From an uncultured Microthrixaceae bacterium (GTDB lineage: Bacteria > Actinomycetota > Acidimicrobiia > Acidimicrobiales > DATDAH01), in NCBI GenBank assembly GCA_963748285.1, contig CAVVIF010000009.1, positions 52,262-116,261 of the forward strand: DNA of 64,000 bases. Reading direction: 5' to 3'. Below, piece by piece: positions 3,051-19,775 of the stretch. The notes beneath the pieces are model-generated. The model saw nothing but the letters and a program-made list of their open reading frames with translations. It did not search any database and was not told the DNA's origin. Numbering within the stretch: position 1 is the first letter of the stretch; the number at the start of each line of letters is the position of its first letter. A program made the translations under genes and the position numbers.

Positions 3051-4221
3051 GCCGGCCTCGGCTGATCCACGTCACCACCACCGACATCAGCCTGGAGCTC
3101 CTGCTCGGCCCCCAGCTCCGGGCCTTCGCCGCCGCCGGCTACGAGGTGATCGGCGCCTCGGCCCCCGGGCCCTTCGTCGAGAAGCTCGAAGCCGACGGGA
3201 TCCGCCACGTCCCCCTCCAGCACGCCACCCGGGGGTGGTCGCTGTCCAGCGACGCCCGGGCCCTCGACGAGCTCCGACGGCTGTTCGCCGAGCTGCGGCC
3301 CGACATCGTCCACACCCACAACCCCAAGCCCGGGGTCTACGGCCGCATCGCGGCCAAGGCGGCCCGGGTCCCGGTCATCGTCAACACCCAGCACGGCCTC
3401 TACGCCACCGAGGACGACCGCGCGGCCAAGCGGGCCGCCGTCTACGCCCTCGAGCGCCTGGCCGCCACCTGCTCGGACGCCGAGCTGGTCCAGAACGAGG
3501 AGGACCTCGAGACCCTCGCCCGCCTCCGCGTGCCCCGCCGCAAGCTCACCCTGCTGGGCAACGGCATCGACCTCGACCGCTTCGACCCCGACCACGTCGA
3601 CCCCGACGCCGTGCAGGCCCTGCGCCACGACCTGGACCCCGACGGCGACGCCGTGCTGGTCGGCGCCGTCGGCCGCCTGGTGCGCGAGAAGGGCTACCCC
3701 GAGCTCTTCGAGGCCATGGAGCAGGTCCGCGCCGTGCACCCCGAAGCCCGCCTCGTCGTCGCCGGCCCCGCCGACCCCGACAAGGCCGACGGCGTCACCC
3801 AGGCCGAGCTGGACCGGGCCGAGCAGGCCGGCGTGCGCTTCCTGGGCATGGTCGACGACGTCGAGACCCTCTACGCCGCCCTGGACCTCTACGTCCTCGC
3901 CTCCCACCGCGAGGGCTTCCCCCGCTCGGCCATGGAGGCCGCCGCCATGGGCCTGCCGGTGGTGGCCACCGACATCCGAGGCTGCCGCCAGGTGGTGGAC
4001 CACGACACCACGGGCCTGCTCGTCCCCGCGGGGCGCAACCCGGCCGCTGGCGGCCGCCATGGCCGACCTCGTCGCCGAACCCGATCGCCGACGCCGATGG
4101 GCACGGGCTGCCCGCGCGAAGGCCACGACGGGAGTTCGACCAGCGACGGGTGATCGACACGACCCTGGACACCTACAATCGACTACTCCCAGTCCAGGGC
4201 CGAGCGTCGGCCTCGTCGTGA
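3047..4221 (+). CDS. GT4-family glycosyltransferase; two frame changes in the last ~190 nt
   Basis: ATGA overlap with the upstream stop at 3047-3050. GT4 C-domain: GRLVREKGYPELFEA...ASHREGFPRSAMEAAAMGLPVVATDIRGCRQVVDHDTTGLLVP. The C-terminus continues in two other frames (ALAAAMADLVAEPDRRRR..., then EFDQRRVIDTTLDTYNRLL) to the stop at 4219-4221. Confidence 0.85.
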
Positions 4222-4330
4222 CGAATGGAGCGCGATAATTCGTCCGACTCACCAACCAGGCACTACTCAGTTCCGGGGAGTTGGTACCGCTCATGGGAGT
4301 CTCTGCAACTACCAATAGTCCCCTAGACGC

Positions 4331-5048
4331 TCAGTCCGACTGAACAAGATCCGGCTTCTTGAGGACGAGAGTCTGCGCTAAGGCAGGATAGGACCCTACC
4401 TCCAATTCCTCCAGCATTGCCGTTATCCGGGCTGGATCGAACTCTAGGTGTCCATACAATTCTGCGTGGCGGCCATAGACGAGATCAAGCTGACTATGCT
4501 CTATCAGCGAACGGACGTCTATGTTGGACCCATACTTATTCGATGATCCAGGCGAGAAGGGTTCGATATTTAGAAACAGGTCGATCGTCGAGGACGGCAT
4601 GACCTCCTGGCCGCAAGATCTTATTAAGCTCGTGTGTCAGGCCTTCTATTTCCGATTCCGGGATGTGCTCTATGGTCGAAATCGAGTAGACCGTATCTAC
4701 CGACTCTCGTGGCAGATCTGCTGCTTGCAGCGTCGACTGGACGAGTTCAACGGAGGTGCCAAAAGCCCGATTCATCTTCTGGATGGTGGCACTGCTAACA
4801 GGCCAGCCGACGCCGCTGGCCTGGAGTCCCGGGTCAACGTTGACCACATGTGCGCCTGCGTCAGACAGGGTAAACTGGAAGCCACTCAATCCGCCACCGA
4901 TCTCGACAATGGACTGGCCGGGAAGTATCGGCACGGCATGAAAGGCCCAAGGGTACTCAACTCGACGGGTAGTGTTGTTCGGTTGGAACCCAAACGGTCC
5001 AACGACTTGCGGGAGCCGGGTCCGGATGCGCCTCGCCAGCCGGTTCAC
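4331..5048 (-). CDS. Class I SAM-dependent methyltransferase; one frame change near 4580
   Basis: VEYPWAF...SIVEIGGGLSGFQFTLSDAGAHVVNVD is a motif I-like GxGxG. ORF 4536-5048 continues into ORF 4331-4600 (GGHAV / TIDLFLNIEP...). Confidence 0.7.
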
Positions 5049-5357
5049 AGGCCGTGGGTATCGACAACCGTAGGGCGCGTGCCACCTTGCATTCCAACGA
5101 AGCAGATCGGGAGGGAGGTTGGCGGCGGAATCATCCCCGGCAGGTTAGCTAGGCTGAACCTAGAGGCGTGTCGGCTCGGCTCGAATCCGATGGCCACGCT
5201 GTGGCGAGTAGGGTTTGGGCCCTTACGTCTGTCCGAGATCAACTTGAGCGCCGTTCCCTGAAGCCGACCGGTATAGGGCCTGATTACATTGCTGCCTGGA
5301 TGTCGGCTCAAGCGCGGGGAGTCCGCTTGACATGTGGAGTGAAGTCGGTGAGCGTCG

Positions 5358-6573
5358 TCAGAGCGTTGCAAGTGTCTTCTTGAGTTGAGCGTCCCAGGTG
5401 CCGTCCTGCTCGACGTCGCGTCGAGCTGCCAGACCCAACCGGGTGCGAAGTGCAGAGTCTTCGAGTAGCCGGCTGAGCGCATGTGCAAGTCCGTCGACGT
5501 CGCCGGGCTCGTAGAGGAGCGCGTTCATGCCGTCGGACAGGGTCCGGGCGACATCGCCGATCCGCGGCGCAACGATGGCCCGACCGGCAGCCATGTACTC
5601 CTTGAGCTTCAGCGGCGAGTAATGGAAGTCCGCGTCCGAGCGTGCGGTGAGAACCGCCACGTCCATAGCCGCAAGGTGGTCAGGAACGGACCCGTGCGCC
5701 ACGGCACCGGTGAACGCCACCGCATGGGCGATGCCGAGTCGACGACACTGTTCCTCGAGAGCGACCCGCTCCTGGCCGTGGCCCACGAGGATCAGCCGAC
5801 TGTCCGGTCGACGCGGCAGGACCTGGGCGAACGCCTCGAGCGCGATCTCGACGCGCGTGGAACCGGCGGAAGGTGCCTGTCCAGCCGATGACCAAGTTCG
5901 ACTCCCACCCGAGGGCGGCTCGCACGTCAGCGCCGCGGTTCTCGGGGTCGAACTGCTCGGGGTCGACGGCCATGGGCGTGGTCACCAGTCGCTCTCGATC
6001 TACGCCCATGTCGGCGAGCGCGTTGTGCACCTCGTCCGACACGCACGCGATAGCGTCCGCCTCATCGAACGCCGCCTGTTCCGAGAAGCGTTCGATGAGC
6101 CGGCCCCAGCCTGGTCGTCGGACTCCCCATTTCCTGGCTTCCCAGACCTGGGGAGCATGGACGAAGAGGACCAGCGGACATCCACGCCGTCGCGCCAACG
6201 ACTCACCCGCATGGTGGAAGATGTCGTGGTGCTGCCACACCATGCCGAGTTCGAGATCCGCCCACGGCCCACGGTCGCCGACGTCCCGGAAGGATCTCGA
6301 GCGCAGGAACTGCCGCCCGTCCTTGGCGGCGGTGGTGAGCGTGGTCGGCAGCCGTCGCTCTCGCCCAGAAGACGGAATGGACTCCAGGCCCGTGTAGGAA
6401 AGCACCTGCTGGGGAGTGGCCACGGCGTCTGGGGTCACCACCCACGCGTACCCGAACCGGCGCTCGGCGGCAGCGGCCCACCCTGCCGCCGTCACCCACA
6501 GGGCATCGGCACCCGGCCATGCGGTACTGGCCCGGGGCATGACCAGAACCGCGGCACGTCGGTCCCCGCTCAT
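5358..6573 (-). CDS. GT4-family glycosyltransferase; one frame change near 5860
   Basis: The N-domain is in ORF 5680-6573. After ...IGWTGTFRRFH the sequence continues in the frame of ORF 5358-5786: VEIALEAFAQVLPRRPDSRLILVGHGQERV...SPLKLKEYMAAGRAIVAP. Confidence 0.75.
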
Positions 6574-6653
6574 CGGTCCAGCCGGCCTGTACCCGGCTCC
6601 AAACCCGCCCGTCCCACTCCCCCGCGTTCATCTGACCAGGACGGCTGAGAGCG

Positions 6654-7351
6654 ATGCGAGTCATCGGGTTCGTCCCCTCGAGGTTGAACAGCACCCGGCT
6701 GCCGTCGAAGAACATCCGACCACTCGGAGGGGTACCCCTCGTGAGCCGAGCGGTCGCCGTGTTGTCCGAGGTCGACGCCATCGACGAGACAATCGTGTAC
6801 GCGAGCGATGACGCGGTGATGGCCCATGTCGACGAGTCGCTTGCCTGTCGCTTCGTCGAGCGGCCGTTGCGGCTCGATGACGACGCGACCACGGCCGAGG
6901 ACTTCATCGAGGGGTTTCTCGACCAGGTCGCGTGCGATGTCGTCGTGCTCCTTCATGCCACCTCGCCGTTCATCCGACCGCTCACCGTCGCGCGCTGCCT
7001 GTCCGCAGTGGCCGATGGCGATCACCAGTCGGCGTTCGCCGCCTTGGCGGTCAGGCGATTCTGCTGGTTCGAGGGGCACCCGCTGAACTACTCACTCGAC
7101 GCGCCAACGCCCCGCACCCAAGAAACCTCACCCCCGTCGTCGTCGAGCAGTCCGGGTCTACGTCTTCACTCCGGGAGCTGTTCGAGCAGTCCCGCTCCCG
7201 GGTCGACGAGAACGTCGTCGCGCTCATCGACGAGGTCGAAGGCCACGACATCGACACTGCGGCCGAGTTCGCGATGGCTGAGGTCATCTTGATCGGGGGG
7301 AGCCCTCGAGATGGACGGCGATCAGGACCGGGCCCGCCAGTCGGGCCATGA
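6654..7351 (+). CDS. Acylneuraminate/ulosonate cytidylyltransferase family (CMP-sugar synthetase, NeuA/KdsB-like); frame changes near 7110-7160
   Basis: The N-terminus MRVIGFVPSRLNSTRLPSKNIRPLGGVPL is the classic CTP_transf_3 signature. Later VVLLHATSPF appears. The C-terminal part continues in the frame of ORF 6932-7351 (VVEQSG...ELFEQSRSRV...IDEVEGHDIDTAAEFAMAEVIL). Confidence 0.75.
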
Positions 7352-7375
7352 AATCCTGCTGTTCGATCCGAGGGA

Positions 7376-8230
7376 TCAGGTCCGAGGCCGAGGGCACGGA
7401 CCAATCGGAGACGACAAAGGGCCGATTCCTCGGGCACGCAACCACCGGGCGAGGTCGGCAGTCGAGCCGGCAACGAGTTCTGCCTCACCCGGGAGCATCG
7501 TCGTGCGGTTGTAGACGGCCCCACGGGAATAGGAACACATCGCCCGCGCCCGGCGGGCGATGTGCTGGACGCCGGCAGGCTGTCTGGAACGGATGCTCTT
7601 GAGCCGATGGGCGCCCGGCCCGACCCTGTCGTAGAAGGCTTCCGTCGTCGGCCGGTCGTAGAAGTGGACGTTGTTGCCCTTGGTGTTGCCGATGTCCCAC
7701 CCCACGAAGAACAACTCGGCGACGCCGAGGTGGACGGCGAGGTACACAGCGACCTCATACATGATGCCCGGGCCCCAGGGTCGACTCGTCTGCTGATCGA
7801 AGGTGTGCCGCTCGAAGTCCCGGGAATGAGCCAGGCTGTCGTCGAGGCTGGAGCCGTAGCGGATCCATGTCGAGCGCGATGTCGTGGCGGTTCAGCTGCG
7901 GGAAGCCGACGGCCGGGGTCGGCGCGCAGCACACGGATCGTCTCCGGTGAGGGCCCGGTAGCGGCTCACGTTGTAGGCGTTGAAGCACAGGAAGTCAGCG
8001 GCATCCCCGACCACGTCGATCGCCTGCTTGACGGCGATGACCGCCGACCCCTCGAGCGCCCTCTGGAGGGCCGCCTCCTCGAAGTCGCCCAGTGATGGTC
8101 CACAGGTCACGATCGCACAACGACCTCCAGCGAAGGCGTCTTTCAGAACGGCGAGCTGGGCGGTCGAGTCCCGGTGTTTGCGCACCTCCTCCGCCAAGCG
8201 CCGAGTCTGCTCACGCATGCAGCACGCCAC
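7376..8230 (-). CDS. DUF115/MAF-like or GT42-like (sialyltransferase-like) protein; at least two frame changes
   Basis: The N-part is GRCAIVTCGPSLGDFEE...VIAVKQAIDVVGDAADFLCFNAYN. The C-part is GPGIMYEVAVYLAVHLGVAELFFVGWDIGNTKGNNVHFYD. As I recall it, this resembles the Cst-II motif SGVYMCAVAIALGYKEIYLSGIDFY. The pieces lie in three frames (7892-8230, ~7760-7900, 7376-7762). Confidence 0.45.
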
Positions 8231-8236
8231 CCTCGC

Positions 8237-8879
8237 TCAAGCCGGCATCGTGCAGCTCCAAGAGGCTGTCAACGACCACGACCCACGCGTCGCGATCGTT
8301 TCCCGCCAGTCCGCCCTCTCGGTCCAGTGCGAGACGAACACGAAGTCGAGTTCGTGTTCCACTGCGACCTGGTAGTCGAGCTCGCTGTCGCCGATCAGGA
8401 CCGCGGGACGCTCGGCATCGGCCATCAGTTGCGCCACGAGCTCTGACTTGGCCGTCGGGCTACCGAAGATCCCGGCGAAGTCCGAGCTGAGCCCACGCTC
8501 GCGGAAGATCGCCCGCAACTCCTCTTGATCGCCGCCGGACACCACGTAGGCCAAGCCACCGGAATCGGCGATGGCGGCGAGAGCGCGGAAGCGCGGGATC
8601 GGCCGCGGCCGACCGCAGACCCTCCCGGCTCAGTTCACCGAAGCGGCCGAGGAGCCGCTCGACCTCACCGACCTCCGGTGGGCGGTTGAGGATCTCTGCG
8701 AAGAAGTGGTCGAGCTTCTCGTACCGGGAGACACCGGCGTTCTCGACGTGATATCTCACGAAGTCGGTGGAGGCGGCGGCGCCGTATGAGGCGGTCACCT
8801 CCGCCATCGCCCGGGATTTCACGGTGTTGGAGTCGAGGATGACGCCATCGCAGTCGAACAGCCAGGTGCGGTAGGTCAC
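8237..8879 (-). CDS. HAD-superfamily phosphatase; one frame change near 8590
   Basis: GTG at 8879. HAD motif I is LFDCDGVILDS. The C-part is in ORF 8237-8554 (AYVVSGGDQEEL...LIGDSELDYQVA). Confidence 0.7.
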
Positions 8880-8881
8880 GA

Positions 8882-10521
8882 TCAGACCGCGTCTGCGGGC
8901 GACGGCTGCCTGATCTCCTCCGCATAGAGCGATGATTGCGTGATCGGATACGTGGTGCGGGTGAGTGAGACGATCGGCGGGACTGACGGGTCCTCGGTGA
9001 AGAGGTCGAAGATTCCGAGCATCTCTTCCTGACGGGGATCGCCGGCGTCGAAGCCGTCGAAACCGGTGAGCAGGATACGACGAGCGCCCCCGCCGACGCC
9101 AGGGCCATCGCATACGCCGCCGCCTCGAGGCGAGGCAGCACGCACTCTGTGGACCCGATCGCCAGCTCGCCGGTGCTCACCGTCAGTCCGTAGTCCCGCA
9201 CCTCACCGGCGAACGGGAGATCACCGAGGTGGTACCGGATGGGCTCGGGCATGAAGACCGGCTTCGTCGACTCGGCGATCCGAGGGCCGTCGATGAGCGC
9301 CCGCACAGGGTGGCAGGCGACCAGGCAGTCGACGAGATCGGTCTCGACGGGGGGGACCACGTTGAGGGCGATCACCATCGGCTCCTTCTCGACGATGTAG
9401 CGCTCGATGTCGGTTCGTCTCGTCACGCCCGAGGGCCCGGGGGCGACGATCAGGACGTCGGCTCCCTGACACCAGTCCGTCGCCTCCCACGATCCGGTCG
9501 ACGGCTCGAGGCCAGGCTGGGTTATCGCCGAGCCGAGCCTTCCTGCTGAGTAGCGTCCACCACCGTCACGGCGAAGGTCCTCCAAGGCAGCGACGATCTC
9601 GTCGAGGTCGTAGCGGTTGTCCCGGGTCATCTCCTGGATGTAGGTCGGGTGGATCCCGTAGGAGGCGGACAGGAAGTAGAAGACGTTGGTCCCCCAGCCG
9701 TACTCGTCGTGGAGCTGCCGGAAGTCCGTTGTCACGGGCCCGACGAGCGGCAGGTGATCGACCGTTGCGAGACCGTGGGCGGCCAACTCGATGGCCAAGT
9801 ACTCGGTCCTCGCATTTCCGGGACCCCTTCCCATGCCCAGCAGGGTGCCGTCGACCCAGTGGGCGCCGTGCTCGACCGCCATCAGCGAGTTGGCCATGGC
9901 GAGAGACATGCTGTCGTGCATGTGACAGCCGATCGGGCCGGAGTAGCCATTGCGAACGGCGCCGATGATGGAAGGGATCTCCGGGCCGCGTATCGCTCCG
10001 AACGAGTCCGCGAAGTAGGCCACCTCGACATCCCAGGACTCGGCGTACCGACCGAACTGGGTGAAGTCCTCGGTGGAACGGTTGCTGGCCTGCATCAGGT
10101 TCACCCCGACCTGGTACCCGAGCTCGTGCAACCTCGTGACCGCCGGCTCGAGCTCCTCGAGCTCGTCGTAGTTCGTGGCGAACCTGACCAGCGAGACGGG
10201 GGTGGAATCCGCAGGACCGAACAGTCCTTCGATCACGGCAACAGGACCCTCGGGCCCGAGGACCTCCTTGGCGTTGACCATCACCCCCCATGTGATCCGT
10301 GTGGGGAGGTCGAACTGCCCGAGGAACGCGTCGGTCGTGTACACGAACGGACCCAAGTACCTGTCCTGGATCGGTCTGCGGAACCCGATCTCGACGACCT
10401 CGACCCCCGCTGAAACGACCGCGTCGAGGTAGCGCTCAACGACCCGTGGTTCGAAGTCCCAGTCGTTGTAGTAGCCGCCGTCCCGAAGCGTGCAATCGAG
10501 CAACACGCATGATCCCGCCAT
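8882..10521 (-). CDS. HMGL-like (DRE-TIM) aldolase fused to a C-terminal Rossmann-like domain; one frame change near 9085
   Basis: ATG at 10521. VLLDCTLRDGGYYNDW and GCHMHDSMSLAMANSLMAVEHGAHWVDGTLLGMGRGPGNARTE match the metal-binding D...HxH pattern of HMGL-like aldolases. The C-domain is ADVLIVAPGPSG...AAYAMALASAGARRILLTGFDGF. Stop at 8882-8884. Confidence 0.75.
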
Positions 10522-10592
10522 GTCCACTGTCGAACGAGCGTACCACTCCGCGCTCGTCGACCCAGGGCACCATTCGGGCGTCACGAAGCCGT

Positions 10593-11390
10593 TCAGCCCG
10601 GCGCCCCGCTCCCGCTGCCGGTCTGTTCGGGCCCCTCGAGACGGGGACCAATCGATGCCGAGCCGTCGTCGACCACGCGCACCCACTCTGGTCGGCGATA
10701 GCCGAAGTGGGAGATCTCGGAGCGACATTGCCACTCGATCGACCGATTGGCGGCTGAGGAGAGCACGGCCGACCGCGACGTTCTCGTCTGACCTTCGCAG
10801 CGGCAGGGCGGGCAGGTCGAAGGACCGATCCTGCAGAACGAGGGAGAGCCCCTCCTCCAGGCGGTCGAACTGGATGACGTGATCGACATCGAGTCGGCCG
10901 TCTGACGTATACTCCCTCCCAGTCACTGATCCATTGGTGCTGGAGCACCCAGTCGCTGACCGGGGGGCGATCGTCGGGTGGGAGGTTCTTGTTGTAGAAG
11001 TAGTACCAAGACACCGCCTTGTCCCACGGGTTGCGCTCGACGGTGAAGGTCGTAAACCGGTCCCAGCGCCGACGGCCGAGCCGAGCCCGGATCTGGAACG
11101 CCTGCATGTGCTGGTGGTATCGGCGGAGGCGATGCAGATCCGCTAGCGGCTGACGGACGCCGCTGCCCTGCAGGCGCCACCTGTTTCGCGCCAAGCGGGT
11201 CACCATCTCAGGGAGAGGGTTGAACGGCCCACCCCAATTCCGAGGTAGATGACCCTCCCTCCGCCGGTTCGACCGGCGTGACCACTGCGTCCCGACCCGC
11301 AACCGCGGAAAGCGCGCATTCGATGCTCGTGCCCGCCGTCTTTCGCGTCTTCACGAAGACGAAATCGTGCTCGTAGCTGATGATCGTCAA
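10593..11390 (-). CDS. Sulfotransferase (family-2-like); at least three frame changes
   Basis: The N-terminus is MTIISYEHDFVFVKTRKTAGTSIE (a PAPS 5'-phosphosulfate loop-like KTAGTS). The middle is FTVERNPWDKAVSWYYF. The C-part is DVDHVIQFDRLEEGL...EISHFGYRRP. The pieces lie in four ORF-track frames. Confidence 0.6.
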
Positions 11391-11435
11391 GGCCAGCGCC
11401 CCGAAGGCCGACGGTTGCGGTCCGGCCGCTCGGCC

Positions 11436-12301
11436 TCAGTAGACGCACTCCCACCACAGCCCTACTGACCGCCCGGGCATAGCGGCGATGGAGCAGGGCC
11501 CCACGGACGCGCCGCAGCGAGTACTGCGCCAGGGCGATTCGGCTGAGCTGCCACTCCGCCTTCGGCTCGGCCGGACCGTGCTCTCGCCAGTAGCCGGCGT
11601 AGACGAGGTCGAGTAGCTCTCGTGGCGACGCGGCCAACGACTGCCGGAGATCCATCGCGCTCCGGGCGAGCCAGGCGACCTCGTGCGCCGCAGTGCGCAC
11701 CTCGTACCGAATCGGGAGGTCGCCGACACGGAGTGTGCCTCCGTCGTCGAGGAAGAAGTTGTAGACGCCACAGTCCAAGAAGGCCACGACGGGCTCGACG
11801 GAGTCGGCAGTGCGGGCCAACTTCGTTCGCCTCCCCAGCCGGGGAGTGATCTGGAGCGCGAAGTCTCCGGGCCGTGTCCTGCGTGGTCGGTCCAGAGGCG
11901 GCTCCACCTGCGACGGCGAGATGGAACTTACGAAGCTGCCCAGCGCAGCGCGCCACCAGAGCCCGCTTGCTGTGGGGGTCCAGGGAATCGGAGGCGAGGA
12001 GCGTTGCGACGTCCAGTCCGCGGTAGCGGTCCATGACCAGTGCACGGGCACGAGGCAGATAGCCGACCGACTGGATCGTTTCGATGCCCTGCAACGTCAA
12101 CTGCTTGTCGAGCGCTTCGTAGGCGGCGGAAGTCTCCGGCGTCCACGGCGCACGGTCCGGCTTGGACACCTTGGCGACGAATTCGCGACCATCTCTCGCG
12201 CTCAACGCGTACATGTGCGAGGTCCGACTCTCCCACGTTTCGTCCACGCGGAAGTCGTCATCGAAGCGGTCCCGGCACTCGGCAAGGAGCTCGGCGGTCA
12301 C
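11436..12301 (-). CDS. Protein-kinase-like fold phosphotransferase (APH/Kdo-kinase-like); frame change near 11930; 3' end uncertain
   Basis: The N-lobe is YALSARDGREFVAKVSKP...ALVMDRYRG (ORF 11462-12910 frame). The C-lobe is VVAFLDCGVYNFFLDDGGTLRVGDLP...LVYAGYW (ORF 11200-12051 frame). I could not align the catalytic motif confidently. Confidence 0.4.
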
Positions 12302-12396
12302 CGATGCAACAGCGACGGGGACCGTCGGACCCGCCCCCACGTGTGGTGGCGTCAGCGGCCCTGCTGCCGCCGGTGAACCCTTGTCCTCACGGCGGT

Positions 12397-13319
12397 TCAC
12401 GGCACGACTCGCCGCGGGTATTCGTAGCTGTCCATGAGTCGCCGACAACCTGTCTCGATGGCGGCCCGGTGTGCGGACCGTAGCCCTACCGTCCACGAGT
12501 CGTCCCCTGCTACCTCCACTGGTCCCCGCTCGAGTCCCACGTTTCCCCACGCAAGGTGATGCTTCTCGACCTGGACGATCCCACGTCGAAGCTGGGTGCA
12601 GATGCGATCCGCGCCTATCGCCTCGATGGTGGTCGCCGGGTCGGCGACGAAGTCCTGGTAGCGCACTCGGACCGCCGAGCCTGCGGAAGCCGACCGACTG
12701 AGACGCTCGACTGCACGGTTCGAATGGTTCCACCGATGGCTGTCGGCGATGACGCTGGCCAGTTCCCGACGGGGACTGAGCTTGCCGTAGCCCTTGCGGT
12801 CGTAGAGGTCCCGCCCCCGCCGTAAGCGAGAGTGGATCGCCCCCCGAGGATCGCGGACAAGATGCACGATTCGAAGGCGCGAGGCCGCGCACGACAGCGC
12901 CGCCGTCCATCCAGGATGATTCGACGAGTCAACGATCATCGCCGAACCGGTCGCCTCGAGGAGAGCAGAAAGGGCCGGTTTGACGAGGATCTCGCCCATC
13001 TCGTGCGGCCACGTCCCGCTGACACGACGGGTCCAGCCCTGACCTGAGTGACGCGTGATCGATGCCGCCAAGTGGGACCACTGGATGGAGCCGTCAGACG
13101 CCACTGCCTCGAGGACCGGACCCCATCTCGGACAGGAGTCAATCGGGTCGCCACACGAGCACTTCCGCCCGAGTGCGACTGACTGCGGGAGGTAGGCGAG
13201 CTCGCCGACGTGGATGGCGCCACTCGAGTTTGAGGACAGCGCTTCTCCGAGAAGCGTCGATCCGCTGCGGGGGAAGCCGGCAATGGAGATGACGGTATAG
13301 GCGCGGATTCTCCCCTCAT
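12397..13319 (-). CDS. Sulfotransferase (P-loop type); single-base frame change in a G-run next to the start codon
   Basis: ATG at 13319-13317 is followed by a GGGG run (13315-13312). One extra G would give MRGRIRAYTVISIAGFPRSGSTLLGEAL (5'-PSB loop), in frame with ORF 12397-13104, which contains RIVHLVRDPRGAIHS (3'-PB-like). Confidence 0.75.
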
Positions 13320-13326
13320 GGCTGCG

Positions 13327-14560
13327 TCAACCGGGTCCCCCGCGGGACGCCACCGCCGCCAACAACCGCGTGACGGCCTGTTCTGTGTGGGCGGACATGA
13401 AGTGCTCCCGGTAGAGGATCGACGCTTCCTCCCCCTTCCGCACCACCCCATCGGGTACGTCGAGCCACTCGGCGATCTCGCTCGCCGCCGAGCTCGGATC
13501 GTTCCCCGCACGATCGCTCCGCCCTTCGGCCTCTGCGATCCGTCCGCGAGTAGATAACTGGCTGTGCCGATCTCGTCCGACACAACCACGGGTGTCCCAC
13601 GACTGAGCGACTCGAGCACGGCCATGCCACCATCCTCGCGGGCGAGCGACACGAAGACGTCATGCGTCTCGTAGAGGTGCCACATGTCGTCGTAGGTGAC
13701 GTCGTGGCGCCATTCGACCCGATCGGAGAACTCGAGATCGTCGGTGAGCCGACGCAGGTCGGTCAGGTAGTCGCGGGCGTGTTCGGACCGCTCTGGCGAC
13801 GAGCTGCCCAGTCCCGAAGCGACAATGGTCACACGCGCCGGGTACCGAGTTCGACGAGTTCGTGCCCAACCCGAATGACGCTCTCGATTCGTTTGAATCG
13901 GGCAAGGCTCCCCACGAAACAGGAGTCGAATCTCCGCATTCCCGAGGTACGAGCGTCCGGATGGCACGCTGGTGGTCGTCGTGGAGAACGGAATCCAATA
14001 GCTGTCGAAGATCGGTCCATTGTGGGTCCACGCTGCTGAAGGAGAGATCGGCGTGAACTTGAGCGGTTTCGCCCTGTCGAACGGACGGACGAGCAAGGCC
14101 GCCACCCTCTGCTGGGCAGGTCCCAATCGAGGCCACTCGAGCGGCCGGATGTTGTAGAGGACGAAGACGACCGGGACACAGTGGCGAGCAACCACGTTCC
14201 GACGATCCCGAGTCTCGTCGAACGAATGACCACGAAATCCGGCCGGAAGGAGCGAAATTCTCTCGCCAGTGCCATGAGGCTGGGGGTGTACTCCCAGTAG
14301 CGCAGTGGCTTACGCCCAGTCAGACGTCGCAGGAAGGATCGGGCGTTCGAGAGAACGCTACTGCCGACCAGGACGCAGTCGGGCGGCACGATCGACGTGG
14401 TCTCGGGCCGCTCATGTGTATTGATGAGGATCCGGATGTCGCACCCGAGGTCCCGAAGGCTGTGCACGAATGCATGGAGATTCGGATGGAAGAGGGGGAC
14501 GACCAAGAGCCCACGGGGGTGCCGCCCGCCCACGGGTGGACGAGTCACACCTCGGGTCAC
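13327..14560 (-). CDS. GT4-family glycosyltransferase; at least four frame changes
   Basis: The GTG at 14560 overlaps the upstream stop (GTGA). Pieces: LLVVPLFHPNLHAFVHSLRDLG..., IRLLFVGSLARFKRIESVIRVGHELV, RVTIVASGLGS..., and VFVSLAREDGGMAVLESLSRGTPVVVSDEIG. The tail DPSSAASEIAEWL...AVASRGGPG ends at TGA 13329-13327. Confidence 0.7.
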
Positions 14561-16363
14561 GAAGCAGCGACGGACTGGGCGGGCCTGTTGGCCAGTTCCA
14601 GCACCCGCTGGTAGTACGAGTTCGAGGAGAGCAGCACCCCAGGTTCATCCACTGCTTGGAGCTGCCCCGATTCGAACACCATGAGCCGATCGCAGTTCGT
14701 GAGCGTAGACAACCGATGAGCGACGATGAAGAGCGTTGTCGTCTGCCGCAGTTCCTCCAGCGTGCTCTGAATCGCCGCCTCGGACTCGAGGTCGAGCGCG
14801 GCTGGTCGGCTTGTCCAGGACCACGACGGCTGGCCTGCCCACCAGGGCTCGCGTTATGGCGACGCGCTCGGCGTTGCCCGCCGGAAAGGGAACGCCCCTC
14901 ATCGCCCACGGGTGTGTGTAAGCCCTCCGGCATCCCCGAGAGGTCTCGCTCGAGGTGTGCGCTCTGCGCTGCCTGAACGATGAGGTCGTCCTCCACGTCG
15001 TCGCGAAAGAAGCGGATGTTGTCCGCGATCGTCCCAGCAAAGAGCAATGGCTCTTGCGGCACGAACGCGAAGAGGCTCGTCCATGTCCTGAGGTCGAACT
15101 CGCCGGCGTCAACCCCGTTGACCAGATGTTCCCCGTCGTCGGCGAGCGCAGGCGAAGGAGCAGCTGGACCAATGTCGACTTCCCCGCACCGGACGGGCCG
15201 ACGATGCCGATCATGTCGCCTGGATGCGCCGCGAACGAGATCTCCTGGAGCGCCGCCTGCCCGGGGGTGTACTCGAAGCCCACGTCATCGAAGCGGAGCT
15301 CCTCCACCACGTCGAGTCCACGGTGCCCGTGCACCCGTGCCCCTGCGAATCTGGCCTGACTGGCCCGCAGCCGCTCGATGTACGGATTGGCCGCCTGAAG
15401 GGTCTGATAGTGGGTCTGAGCCTGCGTGGCGTACGACGAAGCCCGTACGAAGATCAGGAGGATCGCGGTCAGCGCCGCGAAGCGGCCACTCCCGGTTGCG
15501 TACAAGATCCCCAGACTTGCCACGATGCCGAGGCCGAGAGCGGTCTGGTACAGGTCCGGCAGGGAGCTTTGGGCGAGGTTGGCACGGAACCGATCGCGTC
15601 GGACCGCATCGTCGATGTCACGCGCGCCGTCGACCCACCGGTTCAGCGACGCCGAAGACCTCGATCTCTTGAGCCTGCGCGGTGATCTGCACGAGGAAGC
15701 TCACAAAGCGCAGGTTGGCAGACGCCGACCTCCGGTTGAACAGCCGAACCAGGCGTGAAAGCGGACGCAGTGCTGCAAAGAGCACAACCAAGGTGACGAT
15801 GATCAGCACTGCGAATCGCAGGTCGAGGAGGAAGGCCGATATGGCGAGCGTGGCCAGCGTGCCGACACCCGCGAGAAGTCTCGTTGCGGCCGACACCGCC
15901 ATTACGTTCTGCTGGACGAACGTGGTGGCCATGTCCTGGAGATGACCAGACCGCTCGTCTGCTTTCACCGACCACGGGGAGCTCAGGTAGGTGGACAAGA
16001 CGTCGCTACGGAGTTCGTGGAGCACCGTTGTGGACATCTTGGCGGATAGCACCTTGGTGACGAGGCGCAGCACGAGGCGCACGGCGTGAGACCGAACGCC
16101 ACGGATAAGGCCACTCCGACCGACAGGCTGGCGTCCAACGGGCCGGGCGAGAACGCAATCGTCGTCTGGTCGGCAGACAGGGCCACCGCCACCTCAGCAA
16201 GGATGACCAGAAGAAGGGTCTCGCTGATGCCGACGAGAACTGAGGCCCCCGCGATGACGATGAGTGGTGAACGGTGCGCACCGAGAAGCTCGAGCAGGTC
16301 CGTCCACGACGTGTCGCCTCGACTACTCTTGAGCAGCCGACGTATTGATCGGGCATTCGCCAA
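14557..16363 (-). CDS. ABC exporter, fused permease-ATPase (MsbA/type I exporter-like); several frame changes
   Basis: TMD pieces are in ORFs 15983-16363 and 15618-16082. The NBD has Walker A GIVGPSGAGKSTLVQLL, then LSGGQR and VVVLDKPTS. The C-terminus is TTLFIVAHRLSTLTNCDRLMVFESGQL, with TGA at 14559-14557. Confidence 0.8.
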
Positions 16364-16729
16364 TGTGCGACGTACACGCTTTCTCGACGCCTTGGTCTTC
16401 GACCTCGTCGTCGCTCAATCTCGCACTCTCTACTAGGTCCGCAACGCTCGGCACAGCGACGCATCAAAGCTGCGAGCGCTCCTTCGCCGACAAAGCCAGA
16501 GTCGGGCGAGCCGATCCGCCAGAATGCCAAATCATACCACGGGGTCCGCGCCGCACGCAGTTGTCCACGTTGCAGAAGGTGATGAAGGTGTGCGACGACT
16601 GTAGAGCCAGGAGGAGCATCCCAGTGGACCCCAGCGAGCGACGAACGTCAACGGAGGGTAGACGGCTGGCCGCCGTGGCAGGACGGTGCTCGACACACGT
16701 CGCATGACCTCACGATCCTACGGGTCACG

Positions 16730-17442
16730 TTAACTGTAATCATAGCCAAGCACTTCAAAGTCCTCCGAGTAGAGGCGATTACAATCTCCCTTGCTCGCTG
16801 GTTCCACACGATCGTCGTCGTCCTTCTCTGACCGGTTCCATGGATATCGAGCGACAACTGAAAGCTGCTCAGCAACGACTCGCATTGCGGACAGATTCTC
16901 GATCTGCACAATGGAGTCGAAGGGCATCCTAAACGACAGGCCAAGTAGACCCCGGCGAGTAGTTTGATATCTGCGGATCAGATGACTGTCGTGTTGGCTA
17001 CTGCTGGAAGGATCTCGATGAATCGATCGAATTCCAGTTCGAGAATCGACTCGACCTGCGCCTCCACCGGATCCTGACTTGTCACACCCAACCACGGATA
17101 GAAGATCACCTGGTGTCGCTTGAGTCGATACGGATCCACGGCGCTCAGCGCTTGGCGCGGCCTGCTCCGGAGTTTCTCCCAGTAGAAGGACTCAAGCCGG
17201 TCATAAGGATTCCGCGTTAGCAGAGTATAACTAGCCGATGACAGGTGGGGCGCAACAGAGCGTGCAACAAGATGGGCGTAACTGCGCCGACTGGAGAACC
17301 GTTCAAGCGAGGGTTGGCTGAGGAGTGTCTGGGTCATAACTTTTGGATTTGTCGCCAAGTAGTGATTGCGACTCGGCTTTGAAGATCCACATGTTCGAAA
17401 TCCCCTCTTGCACGCTAGGTAGATGGAACACTGCTTGAGCAT
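16730..17442 (-). CDS. Sulfotransferase (family-2-like); one frame change near 16985
   Basis: TLLTRNPYDRLESFYWEKL matches the family-2 RNPxxRxxS pattern. The C-part is FDSIVQIENLSA...NRSEKDD...LYSEDFEVLGYDYS in ORF 16730-17095. Local G+C is low. Confidence 0.65.
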
Positions 17443-17689
17443 TTCACCCGGGACAACTCCACGCGACGACAGTCAGCGGTTAAGTATAGGAGCACTTGAC
17501 CGGACAATCGAAACGAGGCTCGTCGAACTGATCTTCGTCAGCGTCCCGTGAGGCGTAGTAGATAAGCGAGATGTTTCCACCCGTTGGTGGGGCCACCGGA
17601 GAGATGATCCGACGTGACCTAGCGGGGTACACGAAGGAGAACACGCCGATGACCCTCACTCATCATGACCTGTCAGAACGGCTCGAGAA

Positions 17690-18151
17690 AGTAAGGCGGG
17701 CGAGACCGATGTTGTCCGCTCGAGCCTGACCTGGATCTTCCAAGAGCTCATCGAGGCCGAAGCGACCGCCCAGATGGCGCCGCGCCATCGGGCGCACCGA
17801 GTCCGGACCGCGAGCGCCGCGGTCACCGGCCACGGCTATTCTCCACGGCGGCGAGCGATGTCGACTTGAAGACCCCGAAACTCCGGACCGGCAGCTTGAT
17901 CCCGTCGCTGCTGAGAACGCCGGCATATCGGGCCCTGGTCGGAGTCGTGATGGAGGCCAACGGTGCGCGGTGTGTCGACCCGCAAGGTCGATGGCCTGCC
18001 CTCGCATGGAGAGGCTTGCGGGACCCACCCAACCGGGACCCGAAGCGCTCGACCATTGCGCAGGCAACTCGAAGGGGCTTTCAGAGAAATCTCTATAGAA
18101 GTCATCTCGGACAGAGATGTCGCCGTACACCCTAGCGCTGAGCCTATTTGA
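17690..18151 (+). mobile_element. IS256-family transposase remnant (N-terminal third only, frame-shifted)
   Basis: FQELIEAEATAQ..., DVDLKTPKLRTGSLIPSLL, RALVGVVMEA and GVSTRKVDGL are spread over three frames. These match the IS256 hallmarks (LMEAE, PKLR.GSF.PSLL, GVSTRKVDDL). The remnant truncates at about 18151. Confidence 0.65.
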
Positions 18152-18330
18152 TTCCGTCGCGCTCGCGCGATGCAGCACGGGTCCTCGGGTGTACTCCTTT
18201 CAGTAAGGCTTTGACGGCCTTCGTTCTAAGAAGGGACTGGCTCATACGATTCTTTTGGGCCCCACAACAGGCTCCGGAGCCCTGCGACGCTTGCGCGCTC
18301 TAGACTCCGACGCGCCCGTGAAGGTCCGAC

Positions 18331-18995
18331 CTAGACCTGATCGAAAGCCCGAACCGTGATGATATACCAAATCGCCATAGATCCCAAAGAACAGTGGATG
18401 CAGGTCGAGTCATTGGTCCGGGTGAGCGGGAACCAGTCATAGCCACCACGATCTAGTTGCCCAAGGAGAGTTCCGCCTACGTCGCTGACTGACCTCCCAT
18501 CCTCATCAAGCCACCGTGCTGGCATCAATCACCCCAATGTCACTCCAGAATCCCACCGTCGTCGCACAGAAGCATGGATGCGGTTGCCTATCGCCGATTC
18601 TCGAGTCGCTGGACGGCGGCGAGTGGATAGTCGTCCAGAATAGTTCTAATGGGCTCGAGTAGCCGGGCTATCGGGAAGGCATCACCATCGAGGAAGATCA
18701 AGATATCATCCGATCTTTTGGTGCGACCACTGATAATTTCCGCCAAGAGGTTCAGTCGCATGGCGTGATCCGTACCCCCAACGGAAGGCTCTGGGGTCGC
18801 TGTGGTCACGAAATCAAACTTACGGTGATGCTCCTCCGAAATGCCGTCTAACGAGGCGTAGGTCCAGAATGGTGTATCGACGTTCTCCTTGAGGTATCGC
18901 CGCTGGATGTCGATCCATCGGTCATCACGCCAGTGAACGGTTGCTATGTGGACATTAGGACCTCGACCCCGAGTGTTCAGTGGGGGTAGAATCAC
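18331..18995 (-). CDS. Nucleotide-diphospho-sugar transferase-like protein (DxD), disrupted
   Basis: ILIFLDGDAFPIARL is a DxD-like motif. After RLENR the sequence continues in another frame as GDRQPHPCFCATTVGFWSDIG, then in ORF 18331-18528. The family was not identified. Confidence 0.4.
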
Positions 18996-19088
18996 GGAGT
19001 CTCAGAGCAGGTACTCAGAGCTTCCAAGCGAGACCAGATGGTTGACATTGACTCGGGATCAAGTCGTCCGGAAAGTCGGTGTGGTGAA

Positions 19089-19775
19089 CTAAGTTCGAAT
19101 CAAAGAACGCGTGGTCTGGATAGCCGAGGTTGTACTGAACACATAAATGCCGGAGCTGCCGCGAAGGCGGTCACGATCGACGTCGAATCGCAGCAGGGGG
19201 AAGGGCGCCTCAGCATGTTCCGAAATGAGCCGCTCATTGTACACACGCCAGAGCTCGGGCGCTCGTCTCTGAGAGAGTTGGCTCGTTCGGTTCCTGAGTG
19301 AAGCACAAACGGCCATTGGGTGTCGATATATTCCACCGAAGCAGATTCCAGAATCCCACAAATGCCGTTTCCATTCATCCAGCACAAGCAAGGTACGGGG
19401 ATCCTTGAATCCCCAAGGTTGGCATGCCGAAGACATCGATGATACAAGACGACTGAGTCGTGTGCGCTGGTCTTGCGTCCACGAGTTCGGGTACCGGGGT
19501 CTGTCCCAACTGCCTCCGTTCGCTCTCAGAACCGAGTCATGCAATTGAACAAGTGCTCGGTCCTCCCTGTTTCCGAGCTTGTTATGGGTGTTGCGCTCGG
19601 AGACGTTGCCGAGGTGCAGTCCGGAGGCTTGTAGACCTCCTGCCAACCAACTTGTGCCGCTACGGTGCATTCCGAGAATGACGACAGGAGGCAACGCCGT
19701 AGGCTCTGTAGCTGGTTGCACGGTCCTAACGTTAGCCGAGGAGACGGGCAGGCGATTTGAGTCCGAGCGAAGCAT
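19089..19775 (-). CDS. Sulfotransferase (P-loop type)
   Basis: VVILGMHRSGTSWLAGGL is a 5'-PSB loop. FKDPRTLLVLDEW is 3'-PB-like. The 228-aa ORF is mostly continuous, with a possible frame change in the last ~60 nt. Confidence 0.7.
   Translation of the reverse strand: MLRSDSNRLPVSSANVRTVQPATEPTALPPVVILGMHRSGTSWLAGGLQASGLHLGNVSERNTHNKLGNREDRALVQLHDSVLRANGGSWDRPRYPNSWTQDQRTRLSRLVSSMSSACQPWGFKDPRTLLVLDEWKRHLWDSGICFGGIYRHPMAVCASLRNRTSQLSQRRAPELWRVYNERLISEHAEAPFPLLRFDVDRDRLRGSSGIYVFSTTSAIQTTRSLIRT

What the first reader, a model, noticed from the sequence alone, without database searches (positions are those of the whole stretch)
6654..10521. Candidate non-canonical ulosonic-acid pathway built around an HMGL-type aldolase instead of a NeuB/KdsA-type synthase
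Four adjacent island genes read like a complete make, activate and transfer cassette for a 2-keto-3-deoxy (ulosonic) sugar acid.
- 6654-7351 is a CTP_transf_3 cytidylyltransferase (GFVPSRLNSTRLPSKNIRPL). Its known substrates are Kdo, Neu5Ac, Pse and Leg.
- 7376-8230 is a DUF115/GT42-like putative CMP-sugar transferase.
- 8237-8879 is a HAD phosphatase (LFDCDGVILDS).
- 8882-10521 is a DRE-TIM/HMGL-like aldolase (CTLRDGGY...GCHMHDS...GMGRGPGNARTE).

Canonical routes use a PEP-dependent NeuB/KdsA/PseI/LegI synthase. I see no such gene anywhere in the window.

The aldolase also carries a ~230-aa C-terminal domain (LIVAPGPSG...AAYAMALASAGARRILLTGFDGF). Its motifs echo the neighbouring sialyltransferase-like gene (IVTCGPSLG...VAVYLAVHLGVAELFFVGWDIG).

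My inference is that a pyruvate-dependent class II aldolase may form the keto-acid sugar here. As far as I know, that would be an undescribed entry into CMP-ulosonate biosynthesis.
Basis: partly seen in the sequence, partly recalled or inferred. Interest (0 to 1): 0.78.

Follow-up and report, generated by a model that had tools for sequence, protein, structure and literature searches.

The report
Aldolase-based CMP-sugar-acid gene module
Four neighbouring genes form a widespread but uncharacterised module that probably makes, activates and attaches an acidic keto-deoxy sugar for the cell surface, using a metal-dependent aldolase where all known routes use a PEP-dependent synthase.

Summary
The four genes are a CTP_transf_3 cytidylyltransferase, an MptE/DUF115-like protein, a HAD-IA phosphatase and an HMGL-like aldolase with an extra 200-aa C-terminal domain. 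Each carries one lesion. Flanking genes are just as broken, so these look like assembly indels rather than decay.

The aldolase fusion belongs to a large full-length-conserved family (more than 2,395 database hits; at least 558 species genomes, at least 8 phyla). It is well separated from catabolic DmpG-type aldolases.

In 80 related loci:
- a KdsB- or NeuA/PseF-like cytidylyltransferase lies within 300 bp of the aldolase in 68 and within 3 kb in 9 more; the other 3 contigs have little or no flank;
- the HAD is present in 56;
- NeuB occurs in only 3 and KdsA in 2, and each of those 5 loci carries a second cytidylyltransferase.

The window has no NeuB or KdsA. The loci are LPS-core, O-antigen or capsule clusters.

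The C-terminal domain has the MptE / SteA / sialyltransferase (GT42) fold.

No paper describing the family was found. The chemistry (pyruvate donor, aldehyde acceptor, product) remains inferred.

The parts
8882..10521 (-). Aldolase fusion gene (545 aa after repair of one frameshift at about 9088-9091).
   Evidence: Pfam HMGL-like E=2.1e-25. Full-length alignment with the family. tblastn shows frame -2 switching to -1 at 9088-9091, in a G5 run.
9547..10521 (-). N-terminal DRE-TIM (HMGL-like) metal-dependent aldolase domain, about aa 1-325. Carries the motifs DCTLRDGGYYN, GCHMHD and GMGRGPGN.
   Evidence: PDB profile search: 3dxi E=2e-73, DmpG 1nvm 3e-30. AF2 model plus Foldseek: 3dxi TM 0.90, 1nvm 0.80. 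The Arg-Asp and HxH metal site aligns with DmpG.
8885..9495 (-). C-terminal domain of about 200 aa with the MptE / SteA / GT42-like fold. Motifs LIVAPGPSG and ILLTGFDGF. Function unknown: sensor, kinase or transferase.
   Evidence: AF2 pLDDT 95.6. Foldseek: SteA 3e-5, MptE HPPK 8e-4, P. multocida sialyltransferase 2e-3, CstII 2e-2. In the library of 1.84 billion proteins the domain lies at residues about 340-540 of roughly 535-aa proteins in most of the listed hits; most of the shorter hits look like fragments, but a recurring ~238-aa form may be stand-alone.
8237..8879 (-). HAD subfamily IA phosphatase (one frameshift near 8543). Its start lies 2 nt after the aldolase stop.
   Evidence: tblastn to orthologues, 44-49% identity in two frames. 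Motifs I-IV invariant. Nearest structures are phosphoglycolate and sugar-phosphate phosphatases. Present in 56 of 80 related loci.
7376..8230 (-). MptE-like/DUF115 protein, a putative CMP-ulosonate glycosyltransferase (in-frame stop at 7892-7894). Its start lies 6 nt after the HAD stop.
   Evidence: PF01973 in all 14 members of A4. A4 profile against PDB: Maf 5mu5 3e-4, MptE 3e-3, CstII about 8e-3. Pseudomonas relatives match the WaaZ Kdo transferase model at E about 1e-29, below its cut-off.
6654..7351 (+). CTP_transf_3 cytidylyltransferase, NeuA/PseF-like 'class B' (one frameshift near 7106-7133). Convergent with the DUF115-like gene.
   Evidence: HMM of aldolase-linked cytidylyltransferases hits it at 3e-24. 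Class assignment. An orthologous-class protein is nearest to NeuA structures, 1.8e-12.
5358..6573 (-). GT4 glycosyltransferase (frameshifted). Context gene, shared with the closest related locus L001.
   Evidence: tblastn to L001_7276_8709 and L007_5340_9272 in two frames.
10436..11302 (-). Conserved ORF directly upstream of the aldolase, with a sulfotransferase-like VERNPWDK..S.YY motif. Context gene.
   Evidence: tblastn hit to L076_14447_15094, a member of neighbour cluster c108; c108 genes lie near the aldolase in L055 and L076. No Pfam hit. The sulfotransferase reading rests on the motif only (inference).

Best explanation
The four genes are one surface-glycan module that makes, activates and transfers a 3-deoxy-2-ulosonic (4-hydroxy-2-oxo) sugar acid without a PEP-dependent NeuB/KdsA-type synthase.

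Proposed steps:
1. The N-terminal DRE-TIM domain of the 545-aa protein binds pyruvate on its Asp/His-x-His metal site. It adds the pyruvate enolate to an aldose or aldose-phosphate.
2. Where the HAD-IA phosphatase is present, it removes a distal phosphate and so pulls the reversible aldol step forward.
3. The CTP_transf_3 enzyme converts the free ulosonic acid to its CMP ester.
4. The MptE/DUF115-like protein (related to Maf, CstII and WaaZ) transfers the sugar to the glycan built by the neighbouring GT4 glycosyltransferases, sulfotransferases and ABC transporter.

The MptE/GT42-fold C-terminal domain, which is fused to the aldolase in nearly all family members found, most likely binds a nucleotide or CMP-sugar. 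It could be a feedback sensor, as C-terminal regulatory domains are in other DRE-TIM synthases. A substrate kinase or a transferase role is also possible.

Shown here: domain identities, folds, conserved catalytic motifs, and near-obligate gene linkage across phyla. Inferred: pyruvate as donor, the acceptor, the direction of the reaction, the product, and the role of the C-terminal domain.
For: - Family size and conservation: more than 2,395 hits covering 97% of the query; at least 558 relatives among species genomes.
- Linkage: a cytidylyltransferase lies within 300 bp of the aldolase in 68 of 80 loci and within 3 kb in 9 more. The HAD is in 56 of 80, NeuB in 3 and KdsA in 2. All 5 loci with a canonical synthase carry a second cytidylyltransferase.
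- Gene order and strand vary: upstream in Marinobacter, downstream elsewhere, convergent in the window and in L001. Two non-orthologous cytidylyltransferase classes are swapped between sister aldolases. Both points argue for functional coupling rather than inherited synteny.
- The partner enzymes are ulosonate-specific types. Class A passes the NCBIfam KdsB cut-offs (283 vs 255; 172 vs 155). A class B representative is nearest to NeuA structures.
- The aldolase is closest to pyruvate aldolases: DmpG 3e-30 against IPMS/HCS about 1e-13. The metal site is intact.
- Co-located transferase candidates of CMP-ulosonate type: WaaZ-like, Maf/CstII-like and TIGR04326/BFO_1060-like.
- Loci are LPS-core, O-antigen or capsule clusters: GT9, WaaP, WaaL, MsbA, ABC transporters.
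- The window has no NeuB or KdsA.
Against: - There is no biochemical evidence for any step.
- DmpG's catalytic His is replaced by Tyr, so the mechanism may differ.
- DRE-TIM enzymes also perform acetyl-CoA Claisen condensations and decarboxylations.
- The HAD is missing in 24 of 80 loci, mostly actinobacterial. The phosphate logic is therefore not universal.
- No conserved gene supplies an obvious aldehyde substrate.
- All four window genes carry a lesion.
- The window's DUF115-like protein matches MptE-like only below Pfam's gathering score and does not match WaaZ.
Confidence: 0.6

Rival explanations
1. The product is ordinary Kdo. On this view the aldolase is a PEP-independent Kdo or Kdo-8-P synthase (pyruvate plus D-arabinose or arabinose-5-phosphate) that serves a dedicated CMP-Kdo pool for a capsule, O-antigen or core side branch. 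This would parallel the kpsF/kpsU duplicates of E. coli capsule loci (comparison from general knowledge).
For: Most aldolase-linked cytidylyltransferases are KdsB-like, and one passes the KdsB equivalog cut-off. WaaZ (Kdo III transferase)-like genes lie in Pseudomonas and Bacillus loci. PGAP names the Leisingera partner 3-deoxy-manno-octulosonate cytidylyltransferase.
Against: - Two Bacillaceae loci carry KdsA, KdsB-like, SIS+CBS (KdsD-like) and KdsC-like genes in addition to the aldolase, its own cytidylyltransferase and its own HAD in the same cluster. Two routes to the same sugar would be redundant.
- The window and L001 partners are NeuA/PseF-like, not KdsB-like.
- None of the neighbour genes annotated in the actinobacterial loci is an arabinose-5-phosphate isomerase.
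- The HAD is subfamily IA, not KdsC-type.
Confidence: 0.15
2. The DRE-TIM domain performs a different chemistry. Examples are an acetyl-CoA Claisen condensation on a 2-oxo acid, as in IPMS, homocitrate or citramalate synthase, or a decarboxylation. The product would be a non-sugar hydroxy-acid substituent. The cytidylyltransferase would then activate that acid or an unrelated sugar.
For: The superfamily is chemically diverse. IPMS, HCS and carboxyltransferase domains are detectable relatives. The DmpG catalytic His is not conserved. No aldehyde-supplying gene is conserved.
Against: - DmpG-type pyruvate aldolases are much closer than Claisen synthases (3e-30 against about 1e-13).
- From established knowledge, KdsB/NeuA-type enzymes act on the anomeric hydroxyl of cyclic 2-ulosonic acids, which short acyclic hydroxy-acids lack.
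- Every locus with a canonical synthase has a separate second cytidylyltransferase.
Confidence: 0.1
3. In this genome the cassette is a decayed, non-functional remnant of a horizontally acquired island. All four genes would be true pseudogenes.
For: Each of the four genes has one frameshift or in-frame stop. The island has lower G+C than its flanks, 58-67% against 72-76%.
Against: - Comparable frameshifts occur in conserved flanking genes outside the island.
- The aldolase and cytidylyltransferase shifts sit at G5 and C5 runs, which is typical of long-read indel errors.
- Apart from the lesions, all invariant residues are retained.
Confidence: 0.12
4. This is a catabolic 4-hydroxy-2-oxovalerate or HMG-CoA-type lyase that sits next to glycan genes by chance.
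For: JGI annotation pipelines call family members 4-hydroxy 2-oxovalerate aldolase.
Against: - It scores far below the curated cut-offs: 86 against 286, and 100 against 229.
- No acylating aldehyde dehydrogenase partner was found among the neighbour clusters that were annotated.
- A cytidylyltransferase is linked in 77 of 80 loci across at least 8 phyla.
Confidence: 0.02

Closest known systems
CMP-Kdo pathway (KdsA synthase, KdsC phosphatase, KdsB cytidylyltransferase, Kdo transferases such as WaaZ)
   Same: The logic is the same: a C3 unit is condensed with an aldose phosphate, the product is dephosphorylated by a HAD enzyme, CMP-activated by a CTP_transf_3 enzyme, and transferred. Many aldolase partners are KdsB-like and some co-located transferases are WaaZ-like.
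   Different: - The synthase is a DRE-TIM metallo-aldolase fused to an MptE/GT42-fold domain, not a KdsA/DAHP-synthase-type PEP-dependent enzyme.
- The HAD is subfamily IA rather than KdsC-type.
- The window's cytidylyltransferase fails the KdsB cut-off.
Sialic / nonulosonic acid pathways (NeuB/PseI/LegI synthase, Neu5Ac-9-P phosphatase in animals, NeuA/PseF/LegF, CstII/Maf transferases)
   Same: The window's cytidylyltransferase is NeuA/PseF-like. The transferase candidate is Maf/CstII-like. The animal route also uses a HAD-IA phosphatase after the synthase (general knowledge).
   Different: There is no NeuB-family gene in the window or in 77 of 80 loci. No conserved UDP-sugar tailoring genes supply a hexosamine precursor.
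DmpG/BphI/HsaF 4-hydroxy-2-oxovalerate aldolases (class II pyruvate aldolases)
   Same: Closest characterised relatives. The TIM barrel, the Arg-Asp and His-x-His metal site and the ADS.G and GMG.G.GN motifs are shared.
   Different: - 22-23% identity in the structural alignment of the orthologue model and far below the family cut-offs.
- The catalytic His is replaced by Tyr.
- Extra invariant Arg residues are present, for example in GMGRGPGN.
- No dehydrogenase partner is found.
- The setting is biosynthetic glycan clusters.
BVU_2661 of Bacteroides vulgatus (PDB 3dxi, 'putative aldolase', N-terminal domain only)
   Same: Same family: E=2e-73, TM 0.90.
   Different: It is a structural-genomics entry and the depositors give it no function. 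No paper about it was found.
N-acetylneuraminate lyase NanA (class I pyruvate aldolase)
   Same: It catalyses pyruvate plus aldose giving an ulosonic acid, the chemistry proposed here (general knowledge).
   Different: It has an unrelated Schiff-base mechanism and fold and a catabolic role. It was not tested here.

Membership tests
DRE-TIM metallolyase / Pfam HMGL-like (PF00682) | Profile match above the gathering score | tested here: met
   90 bits against a cut-off of 29, E=2.1e-25.
DRE-TIM metallolyase / Pfam HMGL-like (PF00682) | TIM barrel with an Arg-Asp motif and a His-x-His metal site | tested here: met
   The family profile's LRDGGY and GcHlHdN (GCHMHD in the window copy) align with DmpG LRDGSH and GMHAHHN. 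The AF2 model superposes on 3dxi and 1nvm.
4-hydroxy-2-oxovalerate aldolase (DmpG/BphI; TIGR03217, NF006049) | Score above the curated equivalog/subfamily cut-off | tested here: not met
   86.4 against 286, and 100.4 against 229.
4-hydroxy-2-oxovalerate aldolase (DmpG/BphI; TIGR03217, NF006049) | Catalytic His (His21 of DmpG) after the Arg-Asp motif | tested here: not met
   An invariant Tyr occupies this position.
4-hydroxy-2-oxovalerate aldolase (DmpG/BphI; TIGR03217, NF006049) | Adjacent acylating acetaldehyde dehydrogenase partner (DmpF type) | tested here: not met
   No such gene is among the annotated neighbour clusters of the 80 loci. The neighbours are cytidylyltransferase and HAD genes.
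PEP-dependent ulosonate synthases (NeuB PF03102; KdsA) | A homologue present in the window or co-inherited with the module | tested here: not met
   No hit in the window. NeuB is in 3 and KdsA in 2 of 80 loci, each with its own cytidylyltransferase.
CTP_transf_3 cytidylyltransferases (PF02348) | Profile match above the gathering score | tested here: met
   65.7 bits against 22.6 on the N-terminal ORF piece.
KdsB (TIGR00466) / PseF (TIGR03584) equivalogs | Score above the equivalog cut-off for the window's cytidylyltransferase | tested here: not met
   KdsB 27.5 against 155.2; PseF 59.7 against 205.7. A class A partner from L010 does pass KdsB, 172.5 against 155.2.
HAD superfamily phosphatase, subfamily IA | Motifs I (DxDG), II (S/T), III (K), IV (GDxxxD) and a C1-cap-type relative | tested here: met
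   FDCDGV, SGGD, K and GDS..D are invariant and present in the window copy. An orthologue hits PF00702 and PF13419. The nearest structures are phosphoglycolate and sugar-phosphate phosphatases and beta-PGM.
MptE-like / DUF115 / Maf (PF01973) | Profile match above the gathering score | tested here: inconclusive
   The window copy and its orthologue match below the cut-off (26 against 34.6). Other family members reach 3.8e-18. The GPS and G-x-D motifs are invariant.
GT42 sialyltransferases (CstII) | Detectable sequence or fold relationship to CstII | tested here: inconclusive
   A4 profile against CstII E about 0.008. For the aldolase C-terminal domain, Foldseek gives CstII E=0.02, TM 0.45-0.49.
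WaaZ Kdo III transferase (TIGR04437) | Score above the equivalog cut-off | tested here: not met
   The window copy and the L001 orthologue give no hit. The Pseudomonas relatives reach 101-105 bits against a cut-off of 200.
Any CMP-ulosonate pathway | Formation of a CMP-linked 2-ulosonic acid from the enzymes' products | not testable with these tools
   Requires enzyme assays or glycan analysis.

The most novel reading that the evidence does not exclude
A widespread, previously unrecognised PEP-independent route to CMP-activated 3-deoxy-2-ulosonic acid(s). A DRE-TIM class II aldolase, fused in nearly all members to an MptE/GT42-fold nucleotide-binding domain, replaces NeuB/KdsA. It would supply LPS cores, O-antigens and capsules in at least 558 species of at least 8 phyla. 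The sugar may not yet be assigned to any gene, or may be new.
Probability: 0.5. Interest if true: 0.82.

Novelty: new variant of a known kind. Interest (0 to 1): 0.72.

Why it matters
To my knowledge, all described bacterial and animal routes to CMP-ulosonic acids (Kdo, sialic, pseudaminic, legionaminic acids, Kdn) begin with a PEP-dependent NeuB/KdsA-type synthase. Genome mining for such sugars relies on that marker.

A second, aldolase-based entry would have several consequences:
- Many surface glycans with acidic keto-deoxy sugars are being missed.
- A function would be assigned to a large family now mislabelled '4-hydroxy-2-oxovalerate aldolase' or 'aldolase catalytic domain-containing protein', including a structural-genomics structure (3dxi) deposited without a function.
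- It would offer a PEP-free biocatalyst for ulosonic acid synthesis.

The module sits in LPS-core clusters of Marinobacter, Halomonas, Psychrobacter and Pseudomonas and in Bacillaceae polysaccharide clusters. Genetically tractable hosts are therefore available.

Tried and rejected
**Literature.** Nine full-text searches found nothing on this family. Terms covered HMGL-like plus cytidylyltransferase, oxovalerate aldolase plus acylneuraminate cytidylyltransferase or O-antigen, DRE-TIM plus ulosonic, 'aldolase catalytic domain-containing', 3DXI/BVU_2661/MptE-like, and DRE-TIM metallolyase. The only hit on the first pair is a phosphonate-pathway inventory. I did not pursue it because no PEP mutase appears among the conserved neighbours.

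**Searches that gave nothing.**
- blastn of a Psychrobacter aldolase gene against 5,426 E. coli genomes: no match. No link to a known O-antigen structure could be made.
- The look-up of encoding contigs and cluster look-up for the window's own protein gave no record or organism name.

**Weak or negative comparisons.**
- Profile-profile comparison of the aldolase C-terminal domain with the DUF115-like neighbour family is in register but not significant: probability 10-24%. Homology is claimed at fold level only.
- The idea that the aldolase simply replaces KdsA in Gram-positives was weakened. Bacillaceae loci have KdsA as well, and the neighbours annotated in actinobacterial loci include no KdsD or KdsC.
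- I tested whether aldolase subclades track the two cytidylyltransferase classes. They do not.
- The first tblastn without composition correction gave hundreds of spurious high-GC hits. I repeated it with the filters on.

Full report
**1. The observation**

The window is high-G+C DNA (72-76%). A lower-G+C stretch (58-67%) runs from about 4 to 22 kb. Shared genes with loci L001 and L007 point to an Acidimicrobiia-like actinobacterium.

- The cytidylyltransferase (6654-7351, +) hits Pfam CTP_transf_3 at 6.8e-18. Its best NCBIfam matches are PseF and KdsB models, all below their cut-offs. IspD scores only E=0.005.
- On the minus strand three genes are packed head to tail:
  - the aldolase, 10521 to 8882, with ATG at 10521;
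  - the HAD, GTG at 8879, 2 nt after the aldolase stop;
  - the DUF115-like gene, 8230 to 7376.

Each gene has one lesion.
- Aldolase: a frameshift at about 9088 in a G5 run.
- HAD: a frameshift near 8543.
- Cytidylyltransferase: a frameshift near 7106-7133, beside a C5 run.
- DUF115-like gene: an in-frame TGA at 7892-7894.

Conserved genes outside the island are broken in the same way. The stretch 27361-28397 is read in three frames and 29093-30331 falls into four pieces. I therefore read the lesions as assembly indels rather than decay, although this cannot be proven here.

After repair, the aldolase is a 545-aa protein that aligns end to end with its family and keeps every invariant residue.

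**2. The aldolase family**

A search of the 5.8-billion-protein collection gave more than 2,395 hits. The best 120 are all 526-636 aa and nearly all cover 97-99% of the query. The genome scan found at least 558 relatives among species-representative genomes.

These span:
- Actinomycetota;
- alpha-, beta- and gamma-Pseudomonadota;
- Bacillota;
- Prochlorococcus;
- Sulfurimonas;
- Bdellovibrionota;
- Sumerlaeota.

Bacteroides is added through PDB 3dxi, and a 'Deltaproteobacteria' MAG is among the protein hits.

The N-terminal domain is a DRE-TIM/HMGL-like barrel.
- Its nearest solved structure is the function-unknown BVU_2661 N-terminal domain (E=2e-73, TM 0.90).
- DmpG-type 4-hydroxy-2-oxovalerate aldolases come next (about 3e-30).
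- Claisen synthases are much further away, at about 1e-13.
- The Arg-Asp and His-x-His metal site is conserved, but DmpG's catalytic His21 is an invariant Tyr here.
- Scores lie far below the curated cut-offs for DmpG-type enzymes.

This is a separate family, not a catabolic aldolase.

**3. The C-terminal domain**

The AF2 model of orthologue P0002 has pLDDT 88.7. It shows two domains joined by a disordered linker. Modelled alone, the C-terminal domain reaches pLDDT 95.6.

Foldseek places the domain with SteA (3e-5), the archaeal MptE pyrophosphokinase (8e-4), a Pasteurella sialyltransferase (2e-3) and CstII (2e-2).

It carries the two motifs typical of that fold, GPGP(S) and A..LA..GA..I.L.GFDG. 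The neighbouring DUF115-like protein has the same motifs (CGPS; LAVHLGVAELFFVGWD). Profile-profile comparison aligns them in register but without significance (probability 10%).

A profile of the domain finds 1,145 representative proteins. Most of the listed hits carry it at residues about 340-540 of roughly 535-aa proteins. Most shorter hits look like fragments, though a recurring ~238-aa form may be stand-alone. The domain is thus essentially a hallmark of this fusion.

Its role is open. I favour a nucleotide or CMP-sugar binding regulatory role, by analogy with the C-terminal feedback domains of IPMS and homocitrate synthase (established knowledge). A substrate kinase (MptE-like) or a transferase (GT42-like) remains possible.

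**4. Genomic linkage, the key test**

I called ORFs in 80 related loci and searched their six-frame translations with HMMs.
- A CTP_transf_3 gene lies within 300 bp of the aldolase in 68 loci and within 3 kb in 9 more.
- In the remaining 3, two contigs end at or within about 80 bp of the aldolase gene, and in the third (L020) only about 260 bp of upstream flank is held.
- The HAD occurs in 56 of 80 loci. It is absent mainly from one actinobacterial clade.
- NeuB occurs in 3 loci and KdsA in 2. In all five a second cytidylyltransferase lies in the same locus, adjacent to KdsA or within a few kb of NeuB. The aldolase-adjacent cytidylyltransferase therefore need not serve the canonical synthase.

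Gene order and orientation vary.

The partner cytidylyltransferase comes in two non-orthologous classes.
- Class A is KdsB-like. The L010 copy passes the NCBIfam KdsB cut-offs.
- Class B is NeuA/PseF-like. The window and L001 belong here.
- The two classes are interleaved on the aldolase tree, even between sister Psychrobacter loci.

This pattern indicates selection for the aldolase-cytidylyltransferase pairing itself.

**5. Context of the related loci**

The loci are surface-glycan clusters.
- In Marinobacter the module sits among heptosyltransferase, WaaP-type kinase, WaaL-type ligase and GT4 genes.
- In Pseudomonas loci it sits with MsbA, a pyruvyl transferase and a WaaZ-like gene.
- On a Leisingera plasmid it lies in an ABC-transporter polysaccharide cluster, where PGAP annotates the triad as aldolase / 3-deoxy-manno-octulosonate cytidylyltransferase / HAD.

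In the window the module lies among GT4 glycosyltransferases, Sulfotransfer_3 proteins and an ABC ATPase.

**6. The other two genes**

The HAD belongs to subfamily IA. All four catalytic motifs are present. Its nearest structures are phosphoglycolate and sugar-phosphate phosphatases. It is not KdsC-type.

The DUF115-like protein belongs with a set of 260-305-aa proteins that all hit PF01973.
- The profile of this set detects the Maf glycosyltransferase 5mu5, MptE and, weakly, CstII.
- The Pseudomonas members match the WaaZ Kdo-transferase model at about 1e-29, below its cut-off.
- The window copy itself is a distant member: 37% identical to its L001 orthologue and 13-19% to the rest.

**7. Mechanism**

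The best-supported reading is a make-activate-transfer module for a 3-deoxy-2-ulosonic acid. A class II pyruvate aldolase takes the place of the PEP-dependent synthase. Confidence is 0.6.

The product is unknown.
- Ordinary Kdo is possible, because many partners are KdsB-like and WaaZ-like transferases co-occur.
- Against Kdo, two Bacillaceae loci have a complete KdsA/KdsB/KdsD/KdsC set beside the aldolase triad.
- Also against Kdo, the neighbours annotated in actinobacterial loci include no arabinose-5-phosphate isomerase.

Extra invariant arginines absent from DmpG (for example GMGRGPGN against GMGAGAGN) would suit an anionic acceptor. This is inference only.

**8. Novelty**

Nine full-text searches found no description of the family. 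The library lacks most subscription journals, so prior work cannot be excluded.

Relative to known CMP-ulosonate pathways this is a new variant of a known kind. The logic and the partner enzymes are the same, while the entry enzyme differs in fold and probably in donor.

Noticed in passing
window 22000-52000 (e.g. 24999-26097, 27361-28397, 29093-30331, 48221-49907): Conserved genes outside the island are also split over two to four reading frames. The whole window looks like an indel-rich (long-read?) assembly, so apparent pseudogenes should not be trusted.
   Followed up: partly
window about 4000-22000: Lower-G+C island (58-67% against 72-76%). It carries GT4 glycosyltransferases, two Sulfotransfer_3 ORFs (12397-13104, 19089-19775), a further sulfotransferase-like ORF (10436-11302) and an ABC ATPase (14645-15523). 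It may encode a sulfated surface glycan. No tRNA gene is in the window.
   Followed up: partly
L013 4178-13086 and L021 4273-13127 (Bacillus coreaensis, Neobacillus bataviensis): A Gram-positive cluster with a full Kdo set (KdsB-like, KdsA, SIS+CBS KdsD-like, KdsC-like) and three WaaZ/MptE-like genes, directly followed by the aldolase-cytidylyltransferase-HAD triad. This implies two different ulosonic sugars in one Bacillaceae polymer.
   Followed up: partly
L015, L045, L053, L055, L056, L061 (between aldolase and cytidylyltransferase): An HpcH/HpaI-family aldolase is inserted between the fusion aldolase and the cytidylyltransferase. In L015 and L056 an LdpA-like 4Fe-4S protein is inserted as well, and several of these loci lack the HAD. 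This may be a pathway variant.
   Followed up: no
L047 vs L078; L049 vs L071 (Psychrobacter): Sister aldolases are paired with non-orthologous cytidylyltransferases (KdsB-like against NeuA/PseF-like). This looks like displacement of the activating enzyme within a genus.
   Followed up: partly
P0121, P0126, P0133, P0162, P0166: Recurrent proteins of about 238-242 aa carry only the C-terminal MptE/GT42-fold domain, at residues about 45-237. They may be stand-alone or split forms of the fusion rather than fragments.
   Followed up: no
L005, L006, L009, L010, L014, L024, L026, L028, L029 (Ilumatobacteraceae-type MAGs): A minimal island of alpha/beta-hydrolase, aldolase, KdsB-like cytidylyltransferase, a TIGR04326-like 'surface carbohydrate biosynthesis' protein and an SDR. 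It is embedded among housekeeping genes and has no HAD.
   Followed up: partly
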